A stretch of DNA of 63,063 nucleotides, the filler included, from Globobulimina sp. (Eukaryota), in NCBI GenBank assembly GCA_003354225.1. It is 35 parts of 35 records of this genome, joined end to end, with 100 filler letters (N's around TTAATTAATTAA, not from the genome) between each part and the next. Parts side by side here need not be neighbours in the genome. Positions count along the whole stretch, not along the records: positions 12,640 to 14,344 come from PIVH01012898.1; 34 more parts are not named here. One strand, written 5' to 3'. Positions 1-46,829 of the stretch are shown here, one piece after another (the first letter of the stretch is position 1; every line of letters starts with the position of its first letter). Both the position numbers and the translations under genes were made by a program. The notes below the pieces were generated by a model. That model had not been told where the DNA came from. It was given only the letters and a program-made list of their open reading frames with translations, and did no database searches.

Positions 1-1398
1 ATGATCATACCCGATATGCGGGTTCAAAGCAGTCACTAACATCAAAGATTCGTGCAATAACTGATTGATCCGTTTCTCATTCGGAGTAATCCCAACGATG
101 CAATTCCTTGTCAACGAATTGCACGCATCCGCCAACAGCCTGATTGACTGCAACACATTCGCCACAATCACCGGTTTGAACACATTCAACTCAAAGTGCC
201 CATTGCTGCCAGCAATCGTAGTCGCCACATTGTTGCCCATAACCTGCGCGCAGACCATAGTCATCGCCTCGCATTGCGTCGGATTCACCTTTCCGGGCAT
301 GATGCTGCTCCCCGGCTCATTCTCCGGCAAATAGATCTCGCCCAAACCGCACCTCGGCCCACTGGACAACATTCGAATGTCGTGCGCTATCTTCATCAAA
401 CTCACAGACAACGTGTTGAGCGCACCAGAGACCTCCACCATGGCGTCGTGCGCTGCGAGCGCCTCAAACTTGTTTGGAGCAGTGATGAAGGGCAAGCCGG
501 TGAAACTGGCCACTTCCGCAGCCACCAAGGCGTCAAACCCAATCCTTGTATTCAAGCCGGTACCCACCGCAGTGCCGCCTTGTGCTAATTGGTAGACATT
601 CGGCAAGGTATTCTCGATGCGGCCAATGCCATGCAACATTTGCTGCGCATAACCACTGAATTCCTGCCCCAAAGTGATTGGCGTGGCGTCCATCAAATTG
701 GTACGGCCGATCTTGATAATATCGGCAAATTGTTGCGCTTTCGAGTCTAAATTGCCGTGAATGTATTTCAAGGCTGGCAATAAGGAGTGATTCAATTCCA
801 TGCCAACGGCGATGTGCATCACAGAGGGGAAGGTGTCGTTGGATGATTGGGATTTGTTGCAATGGTCATTGGGATGGACGGGCGCTTTGGAGCCCACTGC
901 GCCGCCCAAGAGTTGGATGGCTCTGTTGCTTAAGACTTCGTTTGCATTCATGTTGGACTGCGTACCCGAGCCAGTCTGATAGATTGTTAATGGGAATTGC
1001 GAGTCTAATTTTCCAGTTGCGATCTCTTCGGCTGCCGCGATCACCGCATTGCCAATGGCCATATCCAATGTGTTTTGCTGCATATTGGCAATGGCGCACG
1101 CTCGCTTTAAGATGCCAAAGGAACGGATGATGGGTTTCGGCATTGTACATTCCGGTTGGCCGATATCAAAATTTTCCAATGATCTCTGGGTTTGTGCACC
1201 CCACAATTTATCCGCGGGCACGCGCACTTCGCCCATCGTGTCGGATTCCACGCGGAATCCATTCGAAAAGGAATATTTCGACTGTGCTCCCCCATACACA
1301 CTGTTTCGTAAACGTTGACTCATTTTAGTGGCTGAGGCGGGATTTACTCGCAAATGGACAAAACCTAATCGGCGAAGTGAAGTCAAAAACATTGACAT
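1..1398 (-). CDS. fumC: Class II fumarate hydratase with probable mitochondrial presequence; intronless, 3' end cut by window edge
   Basis: Hand translation from ATG at 1398: [12 protein letters not shown]... [41 protein letters not shown], signature [29 protein letters not shown]. Absent from ORF track because there is no stop in the window. Confidence 0.97.
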
Positions 1399-1505
1399 GA
1401 AAGAGAGTGTAAATTGTTTCTTCACGGCTTTACCGCAAAAACCCGAAGCATATGACGTGTTAGAATATATCGCATTTTGGAAATTGTTGATTTATCATGT
1501 TTAAA

Positions 1506-1634
1506 GAGCATCCGGTTTTTATTGTTTCTGAGAAACGAAGGCAAACCTATATTATTTTTACCTATATCAGTCACCAGAAACTGTTTGCTTACACCTTACC
1601 CCAATAACTATCTGACGCTGAAGACCGGATGCTC
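1506..1634 (+). other. Inverted-repeat-bounded structured element (unknown ncRNA or MITE-like)
   Basis: GAGCATCCGGTTTT (1506-1519) pairs with AAGACCGGATGCTC (1621-1634); internal stems ttattg/caataa, gtttc/gaaac, aggcaaac/gtttgctt. Confidence 0.4.
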
Positions 1635-1706
1635 CTCGTGCTGTACACAATGTATCGTTATCTAAGTGGTTGTGCGAAATACATTCTAGTTTAACAGTGA
1701 ATGATG

Positions 1707-12539: not shown

Positions 12540-12895
12540 NNNNNNNNNNNNNNNNNNNNNNNNNNNNNNNNNNNNNNNNNNNNTTAATTAATTAANNNNN
12601 NNNNNNNNNNNNNNNNNNNNNNNNNNNNNNNNNNNNNNNCCTCTGCTTTGAATTAAGAAAAACCATGTCTGCTGCACGCGCACGGCATTGAACAACCATC
12701 ACAAGCAGGTCGTATGATGATGGGTTATCATAATATGAAACAATTAGCCTGTCAAAAATGATGGTCATCAGAGCTATTTTTTCACAATGTTCTGTACGCC
12801 AAATAATCTTATCAATAAACACAAATCTTTCCCATAAATGTGAAATGTCAAAATTCTTAACGTTCAAATATGATTTTGTTGCAGCAAATAAAAAC

Positions 12896-13216
12896 AAGAA
12901 GATATGCAGTGATATGTAGATTAATAAGAAAGCATTATTGATTGTAAAATGAATGTCTAATCTCTTTAATACTTATTGATGTGTGACCGACACTGATATC
13001 CACTCGAAAGTATGGCTAAAAAGTATTGTATAATATTTATATCGTGCAATACCTTCGGGGTTGATAATAAGAGGGAGTACCGTGTGAGGCCGGAAACGGA
13101 GCAGCAAAAATCCCCTATCACCATTCAGCTTAAGTGCCGATTAAATCGCATTCTCACCAAAACAATCAATATGCGCTTTATTATCAAATCTTCTCTACAC
13201 ATATCTTCTTTTTTTT
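12896..13216 (+). ncRNA. Signal recognition particle RNA (7SL), eukaryotic type
   Basis: Helix-8 SRP54-binding motif AGGCCGGAAACGGAGCAG (13087-13104) followed by CAAAAATCCC; helix 6 at 13023-13052; long helix 5 (attgattgt/acaatcaat, tgtaga/tctaca); ends pair (AAGAAGATATG 12896-12906 with CATATCTTCTT 13200-13210); about 315 nt; T8 run at the 3' end. Confidence 0.85.
13209..13216 (+). terminator. RNA polymerase III oligo-T terminator of the SRP RNA gene
   Basis: Run of 8 T at the end of the terminal helix. Confidence 0.7.
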
Positions 13217-13247
13217 ATGTAAAAGCAGAAACGTTTTTGATGTGAAA

Positions 13248-14003
13248 CTAATTTGAAGGAAGTTGATAGAAACCGTTGCTGAAACGGAAACAAGGTGGCA
13301 CTTCTGGCTTTTCACGTGCTTCAATACTCATCGCCATCAACCGCTTGAGCACTACTGTCCCCTCTTCATTTTCTTTTTCTTTTTGTTGTTTCATCAAAAA
13401 TATTCTGTCTGTTTTGGTTAAATCCGACCAATCAGTGCTAATTTTTTCAAGCAACTTAAATCTTTGGTATTTCTTATGCATATATAACCCTTTTGAAACT
13501 TGATCAGATGAATATAACCATTTCCCGATCGCATTACACTGGTCACGACGGTGATAATTTAACACAAATATATCAGCTTTATAGGTGTTATGGCAGTATA
13601 ATTTCCCCATATTCAGCGAGTTAAGACAATGTTGGTTGATTGCATTTTGTATATCCATCAGAAATTGCTTGTTTGCTGATGTAATTTGGAAACTAATGTG
13701 TCCTTCATTTAACTTAAAGGTCCAACTTCCATCGCCATTAACAATTCCTCTTATTAATGAAGGTAATATTTGGGGAGCCACAAATTCTGGAAAACACAAA
13801 TCAAATGATTTTCTTGATCTATTACATCCAATCAATTGTGCACAAGTCGTTGACAGGTGTTTTGAATACAATATTAACATACAAGTTGGGTATCTCTTCT
13901 GTGCTGTTTTGTGATATAATGCATCAAAAATAATTGGATGATTACTTTGTGCGATTGGTCTTAATTTCTCCAGCATGGAATAACTGTCATATCTTGATGC
14001 CAT
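13248..14003 (-). CDS. LAGLIDADG endonuclease-like protein (prokaryote/phage double-motif type), first motif apparently missing
   Basis: D..MLEKL...QSNHPI...LYSKHL...RKSFDLCFP...SLIRGIVNGDGSW...ISFQITSANKQFL...WLY...KKY pattern; in-frame stops immediately upstream. Confidence 0.75.
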   Translation of the reverse strand: MASRYDSYSMLEKLRPIAQSNHPIIFDALYHKTAQKRYPTCMLILYSKHLSTTCAQLIGCNRSRKSFDLCFPEFVAPQILPSLIRGIVNGDGSWTFKLNEGHISFQITSANKQFLMDIQNAINQHCLNSLNMGKLYCHNTYKADIFVLNYHRRDQCNAIGKWLYSSDQVSKGLYMHKKYQRFKLLEKISTDWSDLTKTDRIFLMKQQKEKENEEGTVVLKRLMAMSIEAREKPEVPPCFRFSNGFYQLPSN

Positions 14004-14639
14004 CTGATATCCCTATTACTAATTGAACACCATCATATGTCTGGTAATGTGACTACAGTAGTGTTCCCGATAAGAGATACGCATATTAGTACTAATATAT
14101 ATATTATACTGCTAATATATTGAATAAATGGTGGACCTGTCAAGGTATAATATATATTTTTTTTTTTTTGTTTTTTTAATATATTAGCTATTTTCACTAA
14201 TATTTCATCAAAATATATTAGCTATATTTTTAAACTTAACTTGGGCATGATTTTGAAGGGAAAACTGACACCTTCACCTTAGGCTAACTTGGAGCACATT
14301 CCTCTTAGGGTTTGGTTCAAATAAACCTCGACCAACTTTGTCACNNNNNNNNNNNNNNNNNNNNNNNNNNNNNNNNNNNNNNNNNNNNTTAATTAATTAA
14401 NNNNNNNNNNNNNNNNNNNNNNNNNNNNNNNNNNNNNNNNNNNNCCCCTGGTCGATAAGTTGTATACATTTTTTCAATTATCTGAGAAACGGTTTGCAAA
14501 TCCATGCAGAAACTGCTTGTCTTGGATTTATTCTGGGTTTGTTATAACTTTGTCTTGGCTTTGCAAATTGAAGCAAATTGTTGTATTTTTTCCATAGGTT
14601 GTTTTCCATAGATTGAGTTTTCTGGCTTCACTTTACGAT

Positions 14640-36244: not shown

Positions 36245-37809
36245 GAGCTTGTCGAAAATCGCAAATCTGTATATTGTGTTTAACAGGATATCCCGTTGAA
36301 ATCAAAGAAATTTTGTTTAGGAGAATCTGAGTTTCTACTGCCCGGCCGTTTTTACGTTACAGCGTTGTTTTATCCTTAAGCATTGTCTCGGTTGCAGGTA
36401 AAACAACCGGTGTTATAATCAACTTCATTATGCAAATCCATAATTCGCTATTTTACCGATGTTATGTACCATGCAGTACAAGAGCCACTGAATGTTTACC
36501 TTTGTTTTTCCTATTAACGTAAACCGATTCATGCCTTTGCACGATCTGATATTACCAAAAACCGGCTCGACTATACCGATACGCTTATGATAAATTCTTC
36601 GTCCTTCGGTTGTTTCCACTTTATCAACCATCTCTTTGGGGATATTTCTATTTGATTCATCTGAATGGTATGACAGGTATCTGCGTCGGGCATTCTTGTT
36701 ATGAAAACATTTTTCCTGCAGCCTGCAATCTTTGCAATCTTCTGCATTTGATACATATATCCTCTCAATGTTACCCTTGCGAACACCAACTCTTTTATAA
36801 AAAGACAACCTTTTATTTTTCGGGCAAACATACTGATCCTTCTCTTTGTCATATTCGAAATTGTCATATGAGAATTTCGAATATTTCTTACTGGGTTTCC
36901 TGCGGCTTGCGAATCTGGGATCACGGCTGCGGAATTGGTTGTCCGGAATATACGCATCAATATTTTCTTCATTACATTTCTTTATATTTGTCGAGCTGTG
37001 ATAGTTTGAATCCGCAAGTAACGTCTTCCCCTCAAAGTAATTTTCTTCCTTGCCTATCTCTACAAGATTTTTCTTCGCTTCGTCCACAAGGGGAGGAAGA
37101 TGATCATGGTCCTGGCCGCAGCCGATTGCTTCAGCACTCACGATAATCTGCGTCTTTGCATCTACAAGCGCCTGCGCGTTATATCCCTGCATAGTACCTT
37201 TGGATGTATGCATTTTTACAGAATCGTTATCAGTTGCATTACTCTGTACTTCTACTCCTCGTTTTCCTATCTTCGGATCAGCCTCCTCCAGAAATTTCTC
37301 AAGACGTGCCGCCTGCTTTCGTAATCTTTCAAGCGGTTTTTTATTACGGATCTCTATTTTTTCACGAACATCCTCGTCTATTTTAATTTGTTCTTCAATA
37401 AGGCTTTCTATCTTGCGCTCAATCTTTTCTTTTTTGTTTTTTAATGTCTCAAGTTTACCGCTATTTTCAAGTGAAGCATTGGAAGACATTTTGCAGCCGT
37501 CCAGTGCAAATAATGTTCCGCCTAGAAGATTGTGTTTATCACATAAAAGAAGGATGTTCCTGAACAATGGTATTATCTGCTTCCTCATGGAAGTTACAAA
37601 TGCCGCTATTGTGCTGTGATCAGGTCTTTGCCCATCAGCAAGCGCCATGAACTGGGTGTTCTTACAGCACGCGTTTTCAATATCGCGGGAAGAAATTAAA
37701 CCATGCGAATATCCTGCTAATACCACTTTAAGAAGTGTTTTTGGATTATATGCCCGTCGACCGGTCGCATCATTTTTATAATTTTGATCAAAAACAGACA
37801 TATCCAGGA
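36245..37809 (-). mobile_element. IS1182-family insertion sequence (bacterial), 5' truncated
   Basis: Transposase plus candidate right terminal repeat GAGCTTGTCGAAAA at 36245-36258. Confidence 0.85.
36428..37801 (-). CDS. IS1182-family DDE transposase
   Basis: GRRAYNPKTLLK, PDHSTIA, ALDG, GYNAQ, LADSNY, YVCP..C..C...C, VEPVFGNIR. Confidence 0.95.
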   Translation of the reverse strand: MSVFDQNYKNDATGRRAYNPKTLLKVVLAGYSHGLISSRDIENACCKNTQFMALADGQRPDHSTIAAFVTSMRKQIIPLFRNILLLCDKHNLLGGTLFALDGCKMSSNASLENSGKLETLKNKKEKIERKIESLIEEQIKIDEDVREKIEIRNKKPLERLRKQAARLEKFLEEADPKIGKRGVEVQSNATDNDSVKMHTSKGTMQGYNAQALVDAKTQIIVSAEAIGCGQDHDHLPPLVDEAKKNLVEIGKEENYFEGKTLLADSNYHSSTNIKKCNEENIDAYIPDNQFRSRDPRFASRRKPSKKYSKFSYDNFEYDKEKDQYVCPKNKRLSFYKRVGVRKGNIERIYVSNAEDCKDCRLQEKCFHNKNARRRYLSYHSDESNRNIPKEMVDKVETTEGRRIYHKRIGIVEPVFGNIRSCKGMNRFTLIGKTKVNIQWLLYCMVHNIGKIANYGFA

Positions 37810-45125: not shown

Positions 45126-46829
45126 TCAAACAGTGCTGATGTGGGTTTTATTTTGCGTCAATTTCAGCAGAATAATATCTTGCAATATCCATATTATTAT
45201 ATGTTTCAAATTACGCACAATTCTCTCAAAGTTCAAGAACTTGGCGATTTAGCTCAAGGTTTTCTGGCTACACAGCCTTTTTTCCCTGCTTTGACGAGCA
45301 AACAACAATATGTTGATTTCAATGTTTCTGGCGATAACTTGACAATTTGGGAGGTTTCAAACAATGTATATTCTGCCATAAAAAGTGAATGGCGGCAATA
45401 TTACAACACTTCTCCATCGATGGTATATTATGCACCGGAACCACATGATTATACAGTATGGGGTTTCGATTCTCTTTATGCCGCAGCTTTGACTTTAGAT
45501 TATTTGATTGCATCTGGATTTAATTTGTTTGATTATAATGCAACAAAACTTGTGGATGCAATGAGATATTATTTGACAAATAAGTTGTCATTTATTGGTG
45601 CCACAGGGCTCGTTGAAATGGATCAGAATGGTGATCGGATGCATGATTATTATCTGTATGGATATATTAATGGTAATGGAGAACTTGACCCGGTTGGTGT
45701 GTTTGGATCGGGCGATTCGGACCAAACCATTAAGATTGATGTTAGTGTAGTTTTTCCGATGTATTTCAATGGGAAATCATCGGAGGTACCGTTGTCAGAG
45801 CCAATTACATATGTTACCAGTGTTACTGTGCTAGAATCTGTATATTGGAGTGTTCTCATATTATGTACGTTCTTTATTATCGCAATATTGAGTTGTATCA
45901 TATTGATATTTAAAGAAAGAACACACCCAATCATTGCAAAATCGTCCTATAAATTAAGTATTACAACAAGTGTTGGATGCATTTTAGGTTTGGTACTTAT
46001 AGCAACACAAAGAATTGGTAGTTTTTCATGTGTTGTGACGTGGTATGGGTATTCAGCTGTATTTACATTGATATTTATGCCGATTTTTGCGCGATTATAT
46101 AGATTACATATTATTATGCATAGAAATAATGTGGAGTTTATCACCTCACTGTCTACACTTATCGAGCGACAAGAACGAAAATTGAATAAAGGAATTTTGG
46201 CAATGTTTCTCTTAGATGTCATACTATTTTTAATTTTAACAGGTATACATTTTATAAATGGTAATATTACAACATTAGGATTCGTAAAAGATGAGGCGAT
46301 TCGATCAAGCACAGATCCTTTGTTAATTACACAAAATGAATATGAATCGTGTCAAATAAATAACATACAAGTTTCGACAGCATTTGATGTATTAATTATT
46401 GTTTATAAATTAATTCAATTTGGTTTTGGAATGTATTATTTTTTGAGTATTTTTAGATTAAAATATCAGACACCGATTAATGATGAAATAAGTGCTGTCT
46501 TACTGTCCATAGTATTATCAATAATAATATTTGTAATTCTTAGTACATTTGGGCTCGCAAATTCAAATTCAGATATTACCACAATATATGCGTTGAATTC
46601 ATTTATGATTATGCTATTAATCATTTTCATTATGCTTTTAAATGTTTGTTTGAGGTTATATTATCGATATAAATTTTCAAACAATGCGCTTCAAATGCAG
46701 CAATATGGCAAGTCGCCAGAAGAAATTATGAGAGATGAATTTGTAACAATATCAGATGGAGGAGTTGATGGACCGGAGCTGGATGAGGATGCAACGGAGC
46801 TATACTCTCATCAAATTGATTCAGCTCAA
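45126..46829 (+). CDS. Class C (GABA-B-like) GPCR with Venus flytrap domain end and 7TM, partial
   Basis: FDSLYA, FIGATGLVEMDQNGDR, HPIIAKSS, ARLYRLH, INDE. Confidence 0.88.

What the first reader, a model, noticed from the sequence alone, without database searches (positions are those of the whole stretch)
12896..14003. LAGLIDADG endonuclease ORF tail-to-tail with an SRP RNA gene
Seen: the endonuclease stop (13248) lies about 30 bp from the Pol III terminator of a eukaryotic SRP gene on the same contig, with no flanking intron or intein host. Known: LAGLIDADG enzymes of this KS..L.FP...IRG..DGDGS type are mostly bacterial, phage or organellar; free-standing nuclear copies are rare. Inference: this may be a horizontally acquired homing element sited next to a conserved Pol III gene, or a domesticated DNA-binding protein (the motif reads NGDGS and the first motif is missing).
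Basis: partly seen in the sequence, partly recalled or inferred. Interest (0 to 1): 0.7.

Follow-up and report, generated by a model that had tools for sequence, protein, structure and literature searches.

The report
Truncated foraminifer-type LAGLIDADG gene beside SRP RNA
A 5'-incomplete copy of a nuclear LAGLIDADG nuclease-like gene family found in foraminifera lies next to one copy of a repeated SRP RNA gene on a 1.7 kb contig, and nothing found here links the two functionally.

Summary
A minus-strand ORF (13251-14003, stop 13248-13250) carries a second LAGLIDADG motif. On the plus strand, a 316-nt SRP RNA-like unit (12897-12312 is not meant: 12897-13212) ends in a T8 run 31 nt from the ORF's stop.

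The "contig" is only 1705 bp (12640-14344). The window is a chain of 35 unrelated small contigs.

The ORF gives no Pfam hit itself. It is 36-41% identical to ~300-aa proteins of foraminifera (Bolivina, Nonionella), and Chromera has a more distant one. Some of these relatives pass the LAGLIDADG_3 cutoff, both acidic motif residues are conserved, and the AlphaFold model matches solved LAGLIDADG enzymes. Many relatives have basic, acid-free N-termini that look like organelle presequences, and all share a helical C-terminal extension.

This is an old, paralog-rich eukaryotic family, not a recent horizontal arrival. The ORF's GC3 is near the window's median.

The window copy lacks the first motif. 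Family likeness runs about 9 codons further upstream in another frame, meets a stop, and then repeats begin. It is either decayed or mis-assembled.

The SRP unit occurs as many variants and in head-to-tail junctions in public runs, so its adjacency to the ORF is probably chance. Interest is modest.

The parts
12640..14344 (.). The real contig (1705 bp, GC 0.338) that holds both features. Everything outside it in the window is unrelated contigs behind N/TTAATTAATTAA linkers.
12897..13212 (+). SRP RNA-like unit of 316 nt. Its boundaries are set by loose ends and head-to-tail junction contigs in public runs. Its ends are complementary, and it folds as a rod with a helix-8 branch.
   Evidence: loose ends at 12897 and 13212/13213; joint 13213->12933; MFE -74.2 kcal/mol, z -2.81
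13073..13114 (+). SRP RNA helix 8 (S domain), with a GGAA tetraloop and the conserved internal loops.
   Evidence: RF00017 model positions 177-218, 35.1 bits, E 5e-7 / 1e-7. This is below the family gathering score of 70.
13209..13216 (+). T8 run, consistent with a Pol III terminator. The repeated unit itself ends after the fourth T.
12888..12906 (.). Left arm of a 19-nt inverted repeat (95% complementary). The right arm is 13200-13218. Together they bracket the SRP unit.
   Evidence: I1
13248..13250 (-). Stop codon (TAG) of the LAGLIDADG-family ORF, 31 nt from the end of the T run.
13251..14003 (-). ORF of 251 aa. It holds the second half of LAGLIDADG domain 1, all of domain 2, and the family's C-terminal helical extension. 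It corresponds to residues ~67-302 of the 306-aa homologue P0001.
   Evidence: E 2e-48, 40% over 245 aa; AF2 pLDDT 93.4, pTM 0.88
13722..13757 (-). Second LAGLIDADG motif (L-I-R-G-I-V-N-G-D-G-S-W). G90, D91 and G92 of the ORF fall on the family's invariant or nearly invariant columns.
13994..14035 (-). Upstream remnant in another reading frame, preceded by a stop at 14033-14035. Its last residues fit the family's I-R-W block, which in relatives lies just before the Y-D-S-Y block where the ORF's likeness starts. This implies a 1-nt frame break near 13997-14000.
   Evidence: rank 8 of 1877 scored peptides out of 2567; 4.4 bits, E 4.1 window-wide, so weak on its own
14054..14344 (.). AT-rich stretch with internal direct and inverted repeats. 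Other contigs of the runs match it and then diverge at its edges. No first LAGLIDADG motif is detectable here.
   Evidence: loose ends at 14054, 14105/14107, 14226/14227, 14285; X2 record 16; D2, I2, I3, I5

Best explanation
The ORF is one copy of an old, paralog-rich nuclear gene family of eukaryotes. The family is seen in the foraminifera Bolivina and Nonionella, more distantly in Chromera, and in many unnamed environmental contigs.

The family encodes ~300-aa monomeric, two-motif LAGLIDADG proteins of the LAGLIDADG_3 type. Inferred from the family:
- The two LAGLIDADG helices pack at the centre of a pseudo-dimeric alpha-beta-beta-alpha-beta-beta-alpha fold.
- Each helix ends in a conserved Asp that would hold Mg2+ to cut DNA.
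- A basic, acid-free N-terminal extension suggests import into an organelle, most likely the mitochondrion. There the protein would act as a sequence-specific nuclease, or less likely as an RNA maturase.
- A conserved ~85-aa helical C-terminal extension is peculiar to this family.

The copy in the window is incomplete at its 5' end:
- The first motif is absent.
- Likeness continues about 9 codons upstream in another frame, then hits a stop, and then repeats begin.
- I lean 55:45 towards a decayed or truncated copy rather than an intact gene spoiled by a 1-nt assembly error with its 5' exon off the contig.

The neighbouring 316-nt unit is one copy of a repeated SRP RNA gene family. The tail-to-tail spacing of 31 nt is incidental.
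For: Shown for the family:
- Homologues P0001 and P0002 match at E 1e-41 and 2e-38, with 40% and 36% identity over 97% of the ORF.
- A profile of the three sequences finds 7226 proteins at E<=1e-3 and 43 at E<=1e-30.
- Of the 150 listed, I scanned 48 with Pfam. 34 show LAGLIDADG_3 at E<=0.01, 28 of them at or above the curated cutoff, 1 shows only LAGLIDADG_2, and 13 show nothing.
- P0001 itself scores 25.1 bits against a cutoff of 22.5.
- The AF2 model of P0001 has pLDDT 90.9 and pTM 0.85, with two alpha-beta-beta-alpha-beta-beta-alpha units plus C-terminal helices.
- Foldseek against the PDB gives 136 matches at E<=1e-3. The listed ones are all LAGLIDADG proteins: an intein endonuclease 7qsu (2.5e-7), E-DreI, I-AniI, I-DmoI, I-OnuI, the bI3 maturase and WhiA.
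- The motif Asp-Gly pairs are at least 90% conserved or invariant in 30 sequences.
- 8 of 30 clusters carry names: Bolivina argentea 4, Nonionella stella 3, Chromera velia 1.
- In the tree, all named eukaryotic rows plus the window ORF fall in one 35-row clade (SH-aLRT 98), apart from 20 HTH-bearing relatives. The nearest row is a Bolivina protein at 41% identity.
- Of 30 aligned rows, 17 have 12 or more residues before the first conserved block. 14 of these 17 have no Asp or Glu there, and K+R ranges from 3 to 11.

Shown for the window copy:
- GC3 is 0.315, with 21 of the 40 other long ORFs lower and 19 higher.
- The ORF keeps every invariant or nearly invariant residue it covers.
- An X1 contig carries a variant copy in which 13516-13945 is replaced by 40 other letters.

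Shown for the SRP unit:
- The helix 8 hit.
- Up to 12 distinct variant contigs per site, and head-to-tail junctions, in runs from two studies.
- No listed variant lies between 13053 and 13153, while the flanks vary.
- Variant pairs 12944/13163 and 13023/13052 would each turn a predicted G-C pair into A-U.
Against: - The window ORF has no Pfam hit of its own.
- The sequence-only PDB profile search gave only spurious TetR and kinase matches.
- Organelle targeting rests on composition alone. No predictor or localisation data were available.
- Chromera's protein and several others have short N-termini.
- The frame-break evidence is weak statistically: 4.4 bits, E 4.1 window-wide. It gains weight only from its exact position.
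- The ORF is otherwise intact for 251 codons with all conserved residues kept, which fits a live gene better than an old pseudogene.
- The foraminiferal homologues come from transcriptomes of field-collected cells, so contamination cannot be fully excluded for them.
- Two tree rows (P0001, P0002) were labelled Bolivina on my assumption. Their source is EukProt, but no call named their species.
- Whether paralogs elsewhere also sit by Pol III genes could not be tested.
Confidence: 0.65

Rival explanations
1. The gene is intact and functional. The apparent frame break is a 1-nt homopolymer error in a fragmentary assembly, and the first motif and presequence lie in an upstream exon beyond the repeat-rich stretch or beyond the contig end.
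For: - The ORF is open for 251 codons and keeps all conserved family residues it covers.
- AF2 folds it confidently (pLDDT 93.4).
- The break lies at a short A run.
- The contig ends 340 nt upstream, in sequence shared with other contigs.
- AG dinucleotides that could serve as splice acceptors lie just upstream of the I-R-W block.
Against: - It needs both an assembly error and an intron.
- The only candidate exon on the contig (14278-14344) ranks 1860 of 1877 with the family's N-terminal profile.
- A second copy with an internal replacement exists in run X1, which suggests decaying copies.
Confidence: 0.3
2. One reading: a horizontally acquired, mobile free-standing homing endonuclease gene that inserts beside the conserved SRP RNA (Pol III) gene.
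For: - The stop codon lies 31 nt from the T run.
- More distant relatives are bacterial, archaeal or phage LAGLIDADG_3 proteins.
- The catalytic Asp of motif 2 is kept.
Against: - The closest relatives are eukaryotic paralog families that are deep in the tree.
- The composition is typical of the window.
- The copy lacks motif 1.
- None of the other 34 contigs holds another copy of the ORF or of the SRP unit, and there are no tRNA genes.
- SRP units exist as many variants and in tandem junctions, so being next to one is not special.
Confidence: 0.04
3. The contig is contamination or a chimera, for example phage or bacterial DNA joined to a eukaryotic SRP gene.
For: - The contig is very short and lies in a chained set of leftovers.
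- At least one other contig looks compositionally different (GC 0.48).
Against: - A 242-nt contig of run X1 spans 13187-13428 without differences. It may come from the same sample.
- The ORF's best relatives are eukaryotic.
- GC (0.35) and GC3 match the other contigs, which carry eukaryotic domains such as Sec7, 7tm_3 with ANF_receptor, and TIG.
Confidence: 0.03

Closest known systems
Monomeric two-motif LAGLIDADG endonucleases and maturases with solved structures (I-DmoI, I-AniI, I-OnuI group, bI3 maturase; Pfam LAGLIDADG_3 PF14528)
   Same: - The fold has two alpha-beta-beta-alpha-beta-beta-alpha units in one chain.
- Each LAGLIDADG helix ends in Asp-Gly.
- These proteins are the top Foldseek matches.
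- Family members hit PF14528.
   Different: - Sequence identity to solved structures is only 9-16%.
- The family is encoded as a free-standing nuclear gene rather than in an organellar or archaeal intron or an intein.
- It has a basic N-terminal extension and a conserved ~85-aa helical C-terminal extension.
- The window copy lacks motif 1.
Chromera velia protein UniRef100_A0A0G4F5G1, annotated 'Homing endonuclease LAGLIDADG domain-containing protein' (P0040)
   Same: It is a member of the same eukaryotic clade (E 1e-34 to the family profile), a nuclear gene model, and of the same length class.
   Different: It has a long branch (2.0) and odd composition in the tree, a short N-terminus, and no Pfam hit at E<=0.01 in my scan. 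It is only an automatic annotation; I found no study of it.
Bacterial and phage LAGLIDADG_3 proteins with N-terminal helix-turn-helix domains
   Same: The LAGLIDADG core is homologous (E about 1e-17 to 1e-22 to the family profile; 21-36% identity in viral and metagenome loci).
   Different: They carry HTH domains (HTH_23, HTH_7, HTH_28 and others), lack the C-terminal extension, and fall on the other side of a 98% branch.
Nuclear-encoded LAGLIDADG proteins known from other eukaryotes: plant OTP51 (chloroplast splicing factor) and yeast HO endonuclease. Both are recalled from memory and were not retrieved by any search.
   Same: They show that LAGLIDADG domains can be encoded in the nucleus and put to host use.
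   Different: OTP51 is fused to PPR repeats and HO derives from an intein. No sequence comparison was made here, so this is a lead only.
Eukaryotic SRP RNA (Rfam clan CL00003, best model RF00017)
   Same: It has the helix 8 sequence and structure, a length of about 300 nt, a rod-like fold and a T run at the end.
   Different: - No full-length model match.
- The Alu domain is not recognisable by the models.
- The 5' and 3' ends are complementary over 10-11 nt.
- Units occur head to tail without a spacer in public runs.

Membership tests
LAGLIDADG superfamily (Pfam LAGLIDADG_3, PF14528) | Profile HMM hit at or above the curated cutoff | tested here: not met
   The window ORF gives 0 Pfam families at E<=10. 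Its homologue P0001 scores 25.1 bits against a cutoff of 22.5, and P0002 scores 17.7. 28 of 48 scanned relatives reach the cutoff. Membership is therefore indirect, through homologues.
LAGLIDADG superfamily (Pfam LAGLIDADG_3, PF14528) | alpha-beta-beta-alpha-beta-beta-alpha fold with the LAGLIDADG helix at the domain interface | tested here: met
   AF2 models: P0001 at pLDDT 90.9 and the window ORF at pLDDT 93.4. Foldseek against the PDB gives 136 matches at E<=1e-3, and the listed ones are LAGLIDADG proteins. The window ORF has domain 2 complete, but domain 1 lacks its first helix and hairpin.
LAGLIDADG superfamily (Pfam LAGLIDADG_3, PF14528) | Two LAGLIDADG motifs per monomer (or one per subunit of a homodimer), each ending in an acidic residue | tested here: not met
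   In the family, both Asp-Gly pairs are at least 90% conserved. In the window copy only motif 2 is present (13722-13757), and motif 1 is not found on the contig.
LAGLIDADG superfamily (Pfam LAGLIDADG_3, PF14528) | Mg2+-dependent site-specific DNA cleavage | not testable with these tools
   This needs a biochemical assay.
Mobile homing endonuclease gene | Sits in an intron or intein, or as a free-standing gene beside its own target site, with presence/absence polymorphism | not testable with these tools
   There is no intron or intein host. No genome of this organism or of relatives is held, so empty alleles could not be sought.
Mobile homing endonuclease gene | Repeated association of copies with the same kind of neighbour (here Pol III genes) | tested here: inconclusive
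   Only one copy of the ORF and one of the SRP unit occur in the 35 contigs of the window, and there are no tRNA genes. Loci from viral and metagenome collections are only distant relatives, so I did not scan them for SRP RNA.
Eukaryotic SRP RNA (Rfam CL00003) | Covariance-model hit at gathering score | tested here: not met
   There are no gathering-level hits in the window. The best is 35.1 bits against 70 for RF00017, a local match of 42 nt.
Eukaryotic SRP RNA (Rfam CL00003) | Helix 8 with a GNAR tetraloop and conserved internal loops (the SRP54 binding site) | tested here: met
   13073-13114 aligns to model positions 177-218 at posterior probability 1.00 throughout, with E 1e-7.
Eukaryotic SRP RNA (Rfam CL00003) | Alu domain (helices 2-4 with a U-turn motif) and a long helix 5 | tested here: inconclusive
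   The MFE fold is a long rod with z -2.81. Two variant pairs would be compensatory in predicted helices. No model match covers the 5' domain, and a hand reading of hairpins there conflicts with the MFE pairing of the ends.
Eukaryotic SRP RNA (Rfam CL00003) | Pol III terminator (T run) at the 3' end | tested here: met
   T8 lies at 13209-13216. Repeated units end in TTTT.

The most novel reading that the evidence does not exclude
Foraminifera, and at least one chromerid, carry an expanded nuclear family of catalytically intact two-motif LAGLIDADG nucleases. Bolivina has at least four deep paralog clusters and Nonionella at least three. The proteins have presequence-like N-termini and a private C-terminal helical domain. 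They would be imported into mitochondria and act there as a set of sequence-specific DNA or RNA factors, for instance in recombination or in handling the fragmented rRNA genes reported for foraminiferal mitogenomes. That would make them a nuclear-encoded organellar factor class not so far described in protists.
Probability: 0.25. Interest if true: 0.55.

Novelty: new member of a known kind. Interest (0 to 1): 0.3.

Why it matters
For the locus itself it matters little. It is a 5'-incomplete copy of a LAGLIDADG-family gene that happens to lie by a repeated SRP RNA gene, and there is no sign of targeting.

The family behind it is more interesting. Free-standing nuclear LAGLIDADG genes are uncommon. 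Here a whole paralog family with conserved catalytic residues and presequence-like N-termini appears in foraminifera. My four literature searches found no study of it (listings and abstract starts only, plus passages of one paper).

If these proteins are organellar sequence-specific nucleases, they would bear on how the unusual mitochondrial genomes of foraminifera are maintained, and they would be a natural source of new meganuclease scaffolds.

The spacer-less head-to-tail SRP RNA units are a small curiosity for Pol III gene organisation in Rhizaria.

Tried and rejected
1. Upstream exon at the contig end (minus strand, 14278-14344).
- A pairwise tblastn against a 445-nt database gave E 0.019 with P0002 only, and GT/AG sites could be fitted.
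- The family's N-terminal profile (28 sequences) ranks this peptide 1860 of 1877 at -3.0 bits.
- Other contigs share and then leave this stretch at 14285.
- Rejected.

2. Expression. The look-up of sequencing runs listed no RNA holder, so there is no evidence either way on transcription or splicing.

3. Stretches without cover. 13552-13893 has no cover in any of the four runs laid, and runs X2-X4 cover almost none of the ORF. The tool warns that such holes prove nothing.

4. Whole genome and earlier findings. Neither was available.

5. Close relatives with genomic context.
- The first metagenome request failed because the alignment lacked a conserved stretch.
- I repeated it with a closer alignment.
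- That scan and the viral scan returned only distant relatives at 21-36% identity, so neighbours of close paralogs could not be examined.

6. Sequence-only PDB profile search. It gave only TetR and kinase chance matches.

7. ESM Atlas. The nearest clusters are archaeal, bacterial or viral LAGLIDADG_3 at scores of 0.91-0.93. This is consistent with the family but adds nothing on eukaryotes.

8. A second frame upstream that reads like an I-S-D-G motif overlaps the same DNA as the I-R-W block and got no profile score. Dropped.

9. Copy number from depth. The tool warns that summed depths are not copy numbers, so I use only the number of distinct variant contigs and the junctions.
Full report
**What the window is.** The 63,063-base window is not one stretch of genome. 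It is 35 contigs of 1703-1706 bp, sorted by length and joined by N44-TTAATTAATTAA-N44 linkers. The finding lies wholly in one of them, 12640-14344 (1705 bp, GC 0.338). Long ORFs on other contigs carry eukaryotic domains: Sec7, 7tm_3 with ANF_receptor, IPT/TIG and VWA. The source is therefore a eukaryote with an AT-rich genome.

**The ORF.**
- On the minus strand, an open frame runs 13248-14012 stop to stop, with Met at 14003 and 251 aa.
- Pfam gives nothing for it, even at E<=10.
- A word-indexed search of 5.8 billion proteins found two relatives, P0001 (306 aa, 40% identity, E 1e-41) and P0002 (301 aa, 36%), both from EukProt.
- They extend about 65 residues further at the N-terminus. That part holds a first motif of the type W-G-W-F-L-T-D-G, and the shared second motif reads L-I-R-x-I-V/I-D-G-D-G-S-W.
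- A profile of the three sequences, run against 1.84 billion representatives, found 7226 proteins at E<=1e-3, 1075 at E<=1e-10 and 43 at E<=1e-30.

**Is it LAGLIDADG?** Yes, by three indirect routes.
- Pfam. P0001 reaches the LAGLIDADG_3 cutoff (25.1 against 22.5 bits) and P0002 does not (17.7). Of the 150 listed representatives I scanned 48. 34 show LAGLIDADG_3 at E<=0.01 (28 at or above the cutoff), one shows only LAGLIDADG_2, and 13 show nothing. The more distant ones add N-terminal HTH domains.
- Fold. AlphaFold2 on a 30-sequence alignment gives P0001 a confident model (pLDDT 90.9, pTM 0.85). It has two alpha-beta-beta-alpha-beta-beta-alpha units (residues 42-116 and 135-221), C-terminal helices (224-303) and a disordered first ~23 residues. 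Foldseek against the PDB returns 136 matches at E<=1e-3. The listed ones are LAGLIDADG proteins: the TliVMA intein endonuclease, E-DreI, I-AniI, I-DmoI, the I-OnuI group, the bI3 maturase and WhiA, at 9-16% identity. The window ORF itself folds confidently (pLDDT 93.4). It forms the back half of domain 1, a full domain 2 and the C-terminal helices.
- Conservation. In 30 aligned sequences, the Asp-Gly pair that ends each LAGLIDADG helix is at least 90% conserved or invariant. So are a Cys and a Lys in the inter-domain linker and a W-x-Y in the last core helix. The window ORF keeps every such residue it covers. The N in its N-G-D-G-S replaces a non-catalytic position.

The sequence-only search of PDB chains gave only chance matches.

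**Who has it.**
- Exact look-ups of 30 clusters gave names for 8: Bolivina argentea (4 clusters), Nonionella stella (3) and Chromera velia (1, an automatic UniProt name with 'Homing endonuclease LAGLIDADG domain').
- The other 22 are unnamed ENA or Logan contigs.
- I built a quick maximum-likelihood tree of 58 rows, with 304 of 693 columns kept and rooted by my choice on 20 HTH-bearing relatives. All named eukaryotic rows and the window ORF fall in one clade of 35 rows (SH-aLRT 98).
- Within that clade, several deep subclades each hold Bolivina and Nonionella rows. The window ORF sits beside a Bolivina protein at 41% identity, in a weakly supported group.
- Two rows (P0001, P0002) were labelled Bolivina by my assumption.
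- Viral and JGI metagenome scans found only distant relatives at 21-36% identity. The ESM Atlas's nearest clusters are archaeal, bacterial and viral LAGLIDADG_3.
- The ORF's GC3 (0.315) lies between 21 lower and 19 higher values among the window's other 40 ORFs of 180 aa or more.

Together this describes an old, duplicated eukaryotic gene family, not a recent transfer. By inference, the window's organism is a foraminifer or a relative.

**N-terminus and likely site of action.** Of the 30 aligned rows, 17 have 12-76 residues before the first conserved block. 14 of those 17 have no Asp or Glu there, with 3-11 Lys+Arg. That is the composition of mitochondrial presequences by established knowledge, but no predictor was run. 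I therefore infer organellar import. With both acidic residues conserved, I favour a sequence-specific DNA endonuclease over a pure maturase. The one foraminiferal mitogenome paper I opened reports six protein genes and fragmented rRNA genes in its abstract. It mentions LAGLIDADG and introns only in its reference list (abstract and matched passages seen).

**The 5' end of the window copy.**
- Likeness to the family starts at the Y-D-S-Y block, four codons after the Met.
- My first idea was an upstream exon at the contig end. The family's N-terminal profile rejected it, at rank 1860 of 1877.
- Instead, a peptide in another frame directly upstream (13994-14032, preceded by a stop at 14033-14035) ends in D-I-R-W-H-Q. 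It aligns to the profile's I-R-W block, which in relatives lies three residues before Y-D-S-Y.
- It ranks 8 of 1877 scored peptides (2567 searched) at only 4.4 bits. Its register, however, is exactly what a 1-nt loss in a short A run would give.
- From 14054 to the contig end, the sequence is AT-rich with internal repeats. Other contigs in the runs match it and then diverge at 14054, 14105/7, 14226/7 and 14285.
- One X1 contig represents a second copy in which 13516-13945 is replaced by 40 other letters.

I read the copy as decayed or truncated (55%), or as intact but mis-assembled with its 5' exon off the contig (45%).

**The SRP RNA.**
- There is no Rfam hit at gathering level.
- In E-value mode, 13073-13114 matches helix 8 of Metazoa_SRP perfectly in structure (35.1 bits, E 5e-7 and 1e-7).
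- Contigs from four runs of two studies define a 316-nt unit, 12897-13212. Loose ends and one joint show the unit's end followed directly by its start, so units lie head to tail (or are circular) elsewhere. Up to 12 distinct variant contigs cover single sites.
- No variants are listed between 13053 and 13153, while the flanks vary.
- The unit folds as a rod (z -2.81).
- The variant pairs 12944/13163 and 13023/13052 would each change a predicted G-C pair to A-U. Their co-occurrence on one molecule is not shown.
- A 19-nt inverted repeat brackets the unit.
- I accept it as an SRP RNA gene of a divergent lineage (about 0.8). Its Alu domain is unresolved.

**The adjacency.**
- The 31-nt tail-to-tail spacing is real. 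It is bridged by a 242-nt X1 contig (13187-13428, no differences), which may come from the same sample.
- Nothing links the two genes functionally.
- None of the other 34 contigs holds another copy of either, and the window has no tRNA genes.
- SRP units exist in many variants elsewhere, and the LAGLIDADG family is old and dispersed among paralogs.
- The decisive test is the neighbours of all paralogs in complete genomes. It could not be run.

**Literature.** Four full-text searches returned plant PPR/mTERF splicing papers, fungal mitogenome papers and one unrelated review (listings and abstract starts seen). None was on nuclear LAGLIDADG genes of foraminifera or on their SRP RNA. OTP51 and HO are cited from memory only.

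**Verdict.** The identification as LAGLIDADG is right, and the homing or horizontal-transfer reading is not supported. The locus is an ordinary, probably defective member of a little-studied eukaryotic LAGLIDADG family next to a repeated SRP RNA gene.

Noticed in passing
window 1-63063: The window is a chain of 35 length-sorted contigs (1703-1706 bp) joined by N44-TTAATTAATTAA-N44 linkers. Features in different blocks are not neighbours in the genome.
   Followed up: yes
window 12897-13212: The SRP RNA-like unit occurs in public runs of two studies as many sequence variants. Its 3' end (ending TTTT) is followed directly by its 5' start, so units are spacer-less tandem or circular. The 100-nt core around helix 8 shows no listed variants.
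   Followed up: partly
window 12888-12906 and 13200-13218: A 19-nt inverted repeat (95% complementary) brackets the SRP unit. The RNA's own ends can pair over 10-11 nt, which is unusual for eukaryotic SRP RNA.
   Followed up: no
window 14054-14344: An AT-rich stretch with nested inverted and direct repeats. Many other contigs in run X1 match it and diverge at sharp edges, so it looks like a mosaic of dispersed repeats (MITE-like).
   Followed up: partly
window 13516-13945: One contig of run X1 (362 nt) matches both sides of this stretch but has 40 other letters in place of these 430 nt. That is a second, internally deleted copy or allele of the LAGLIDADG gene.
   Followed up: no
window 1-1706: This contig has GC 0.48, against 0.25-0.42 for the other 34 contigs. 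It carries a full Lyase_1 (fumarase/aspartase-type) ORF and may come from another organism.
   Followed up: no
window 36431-37807: A minus-strand ORF with DDE transposase domains (DDE_Tnp_1_6, DDE_Tnp_1, DUF772), of the IS-like transposase type.
   Followed up: no
window 45126-46829: An ORF with ANF_receptor and 7tm_3 domains, a class C GPCR-like receptor fragment filling the whole contig.
   Followed up: no
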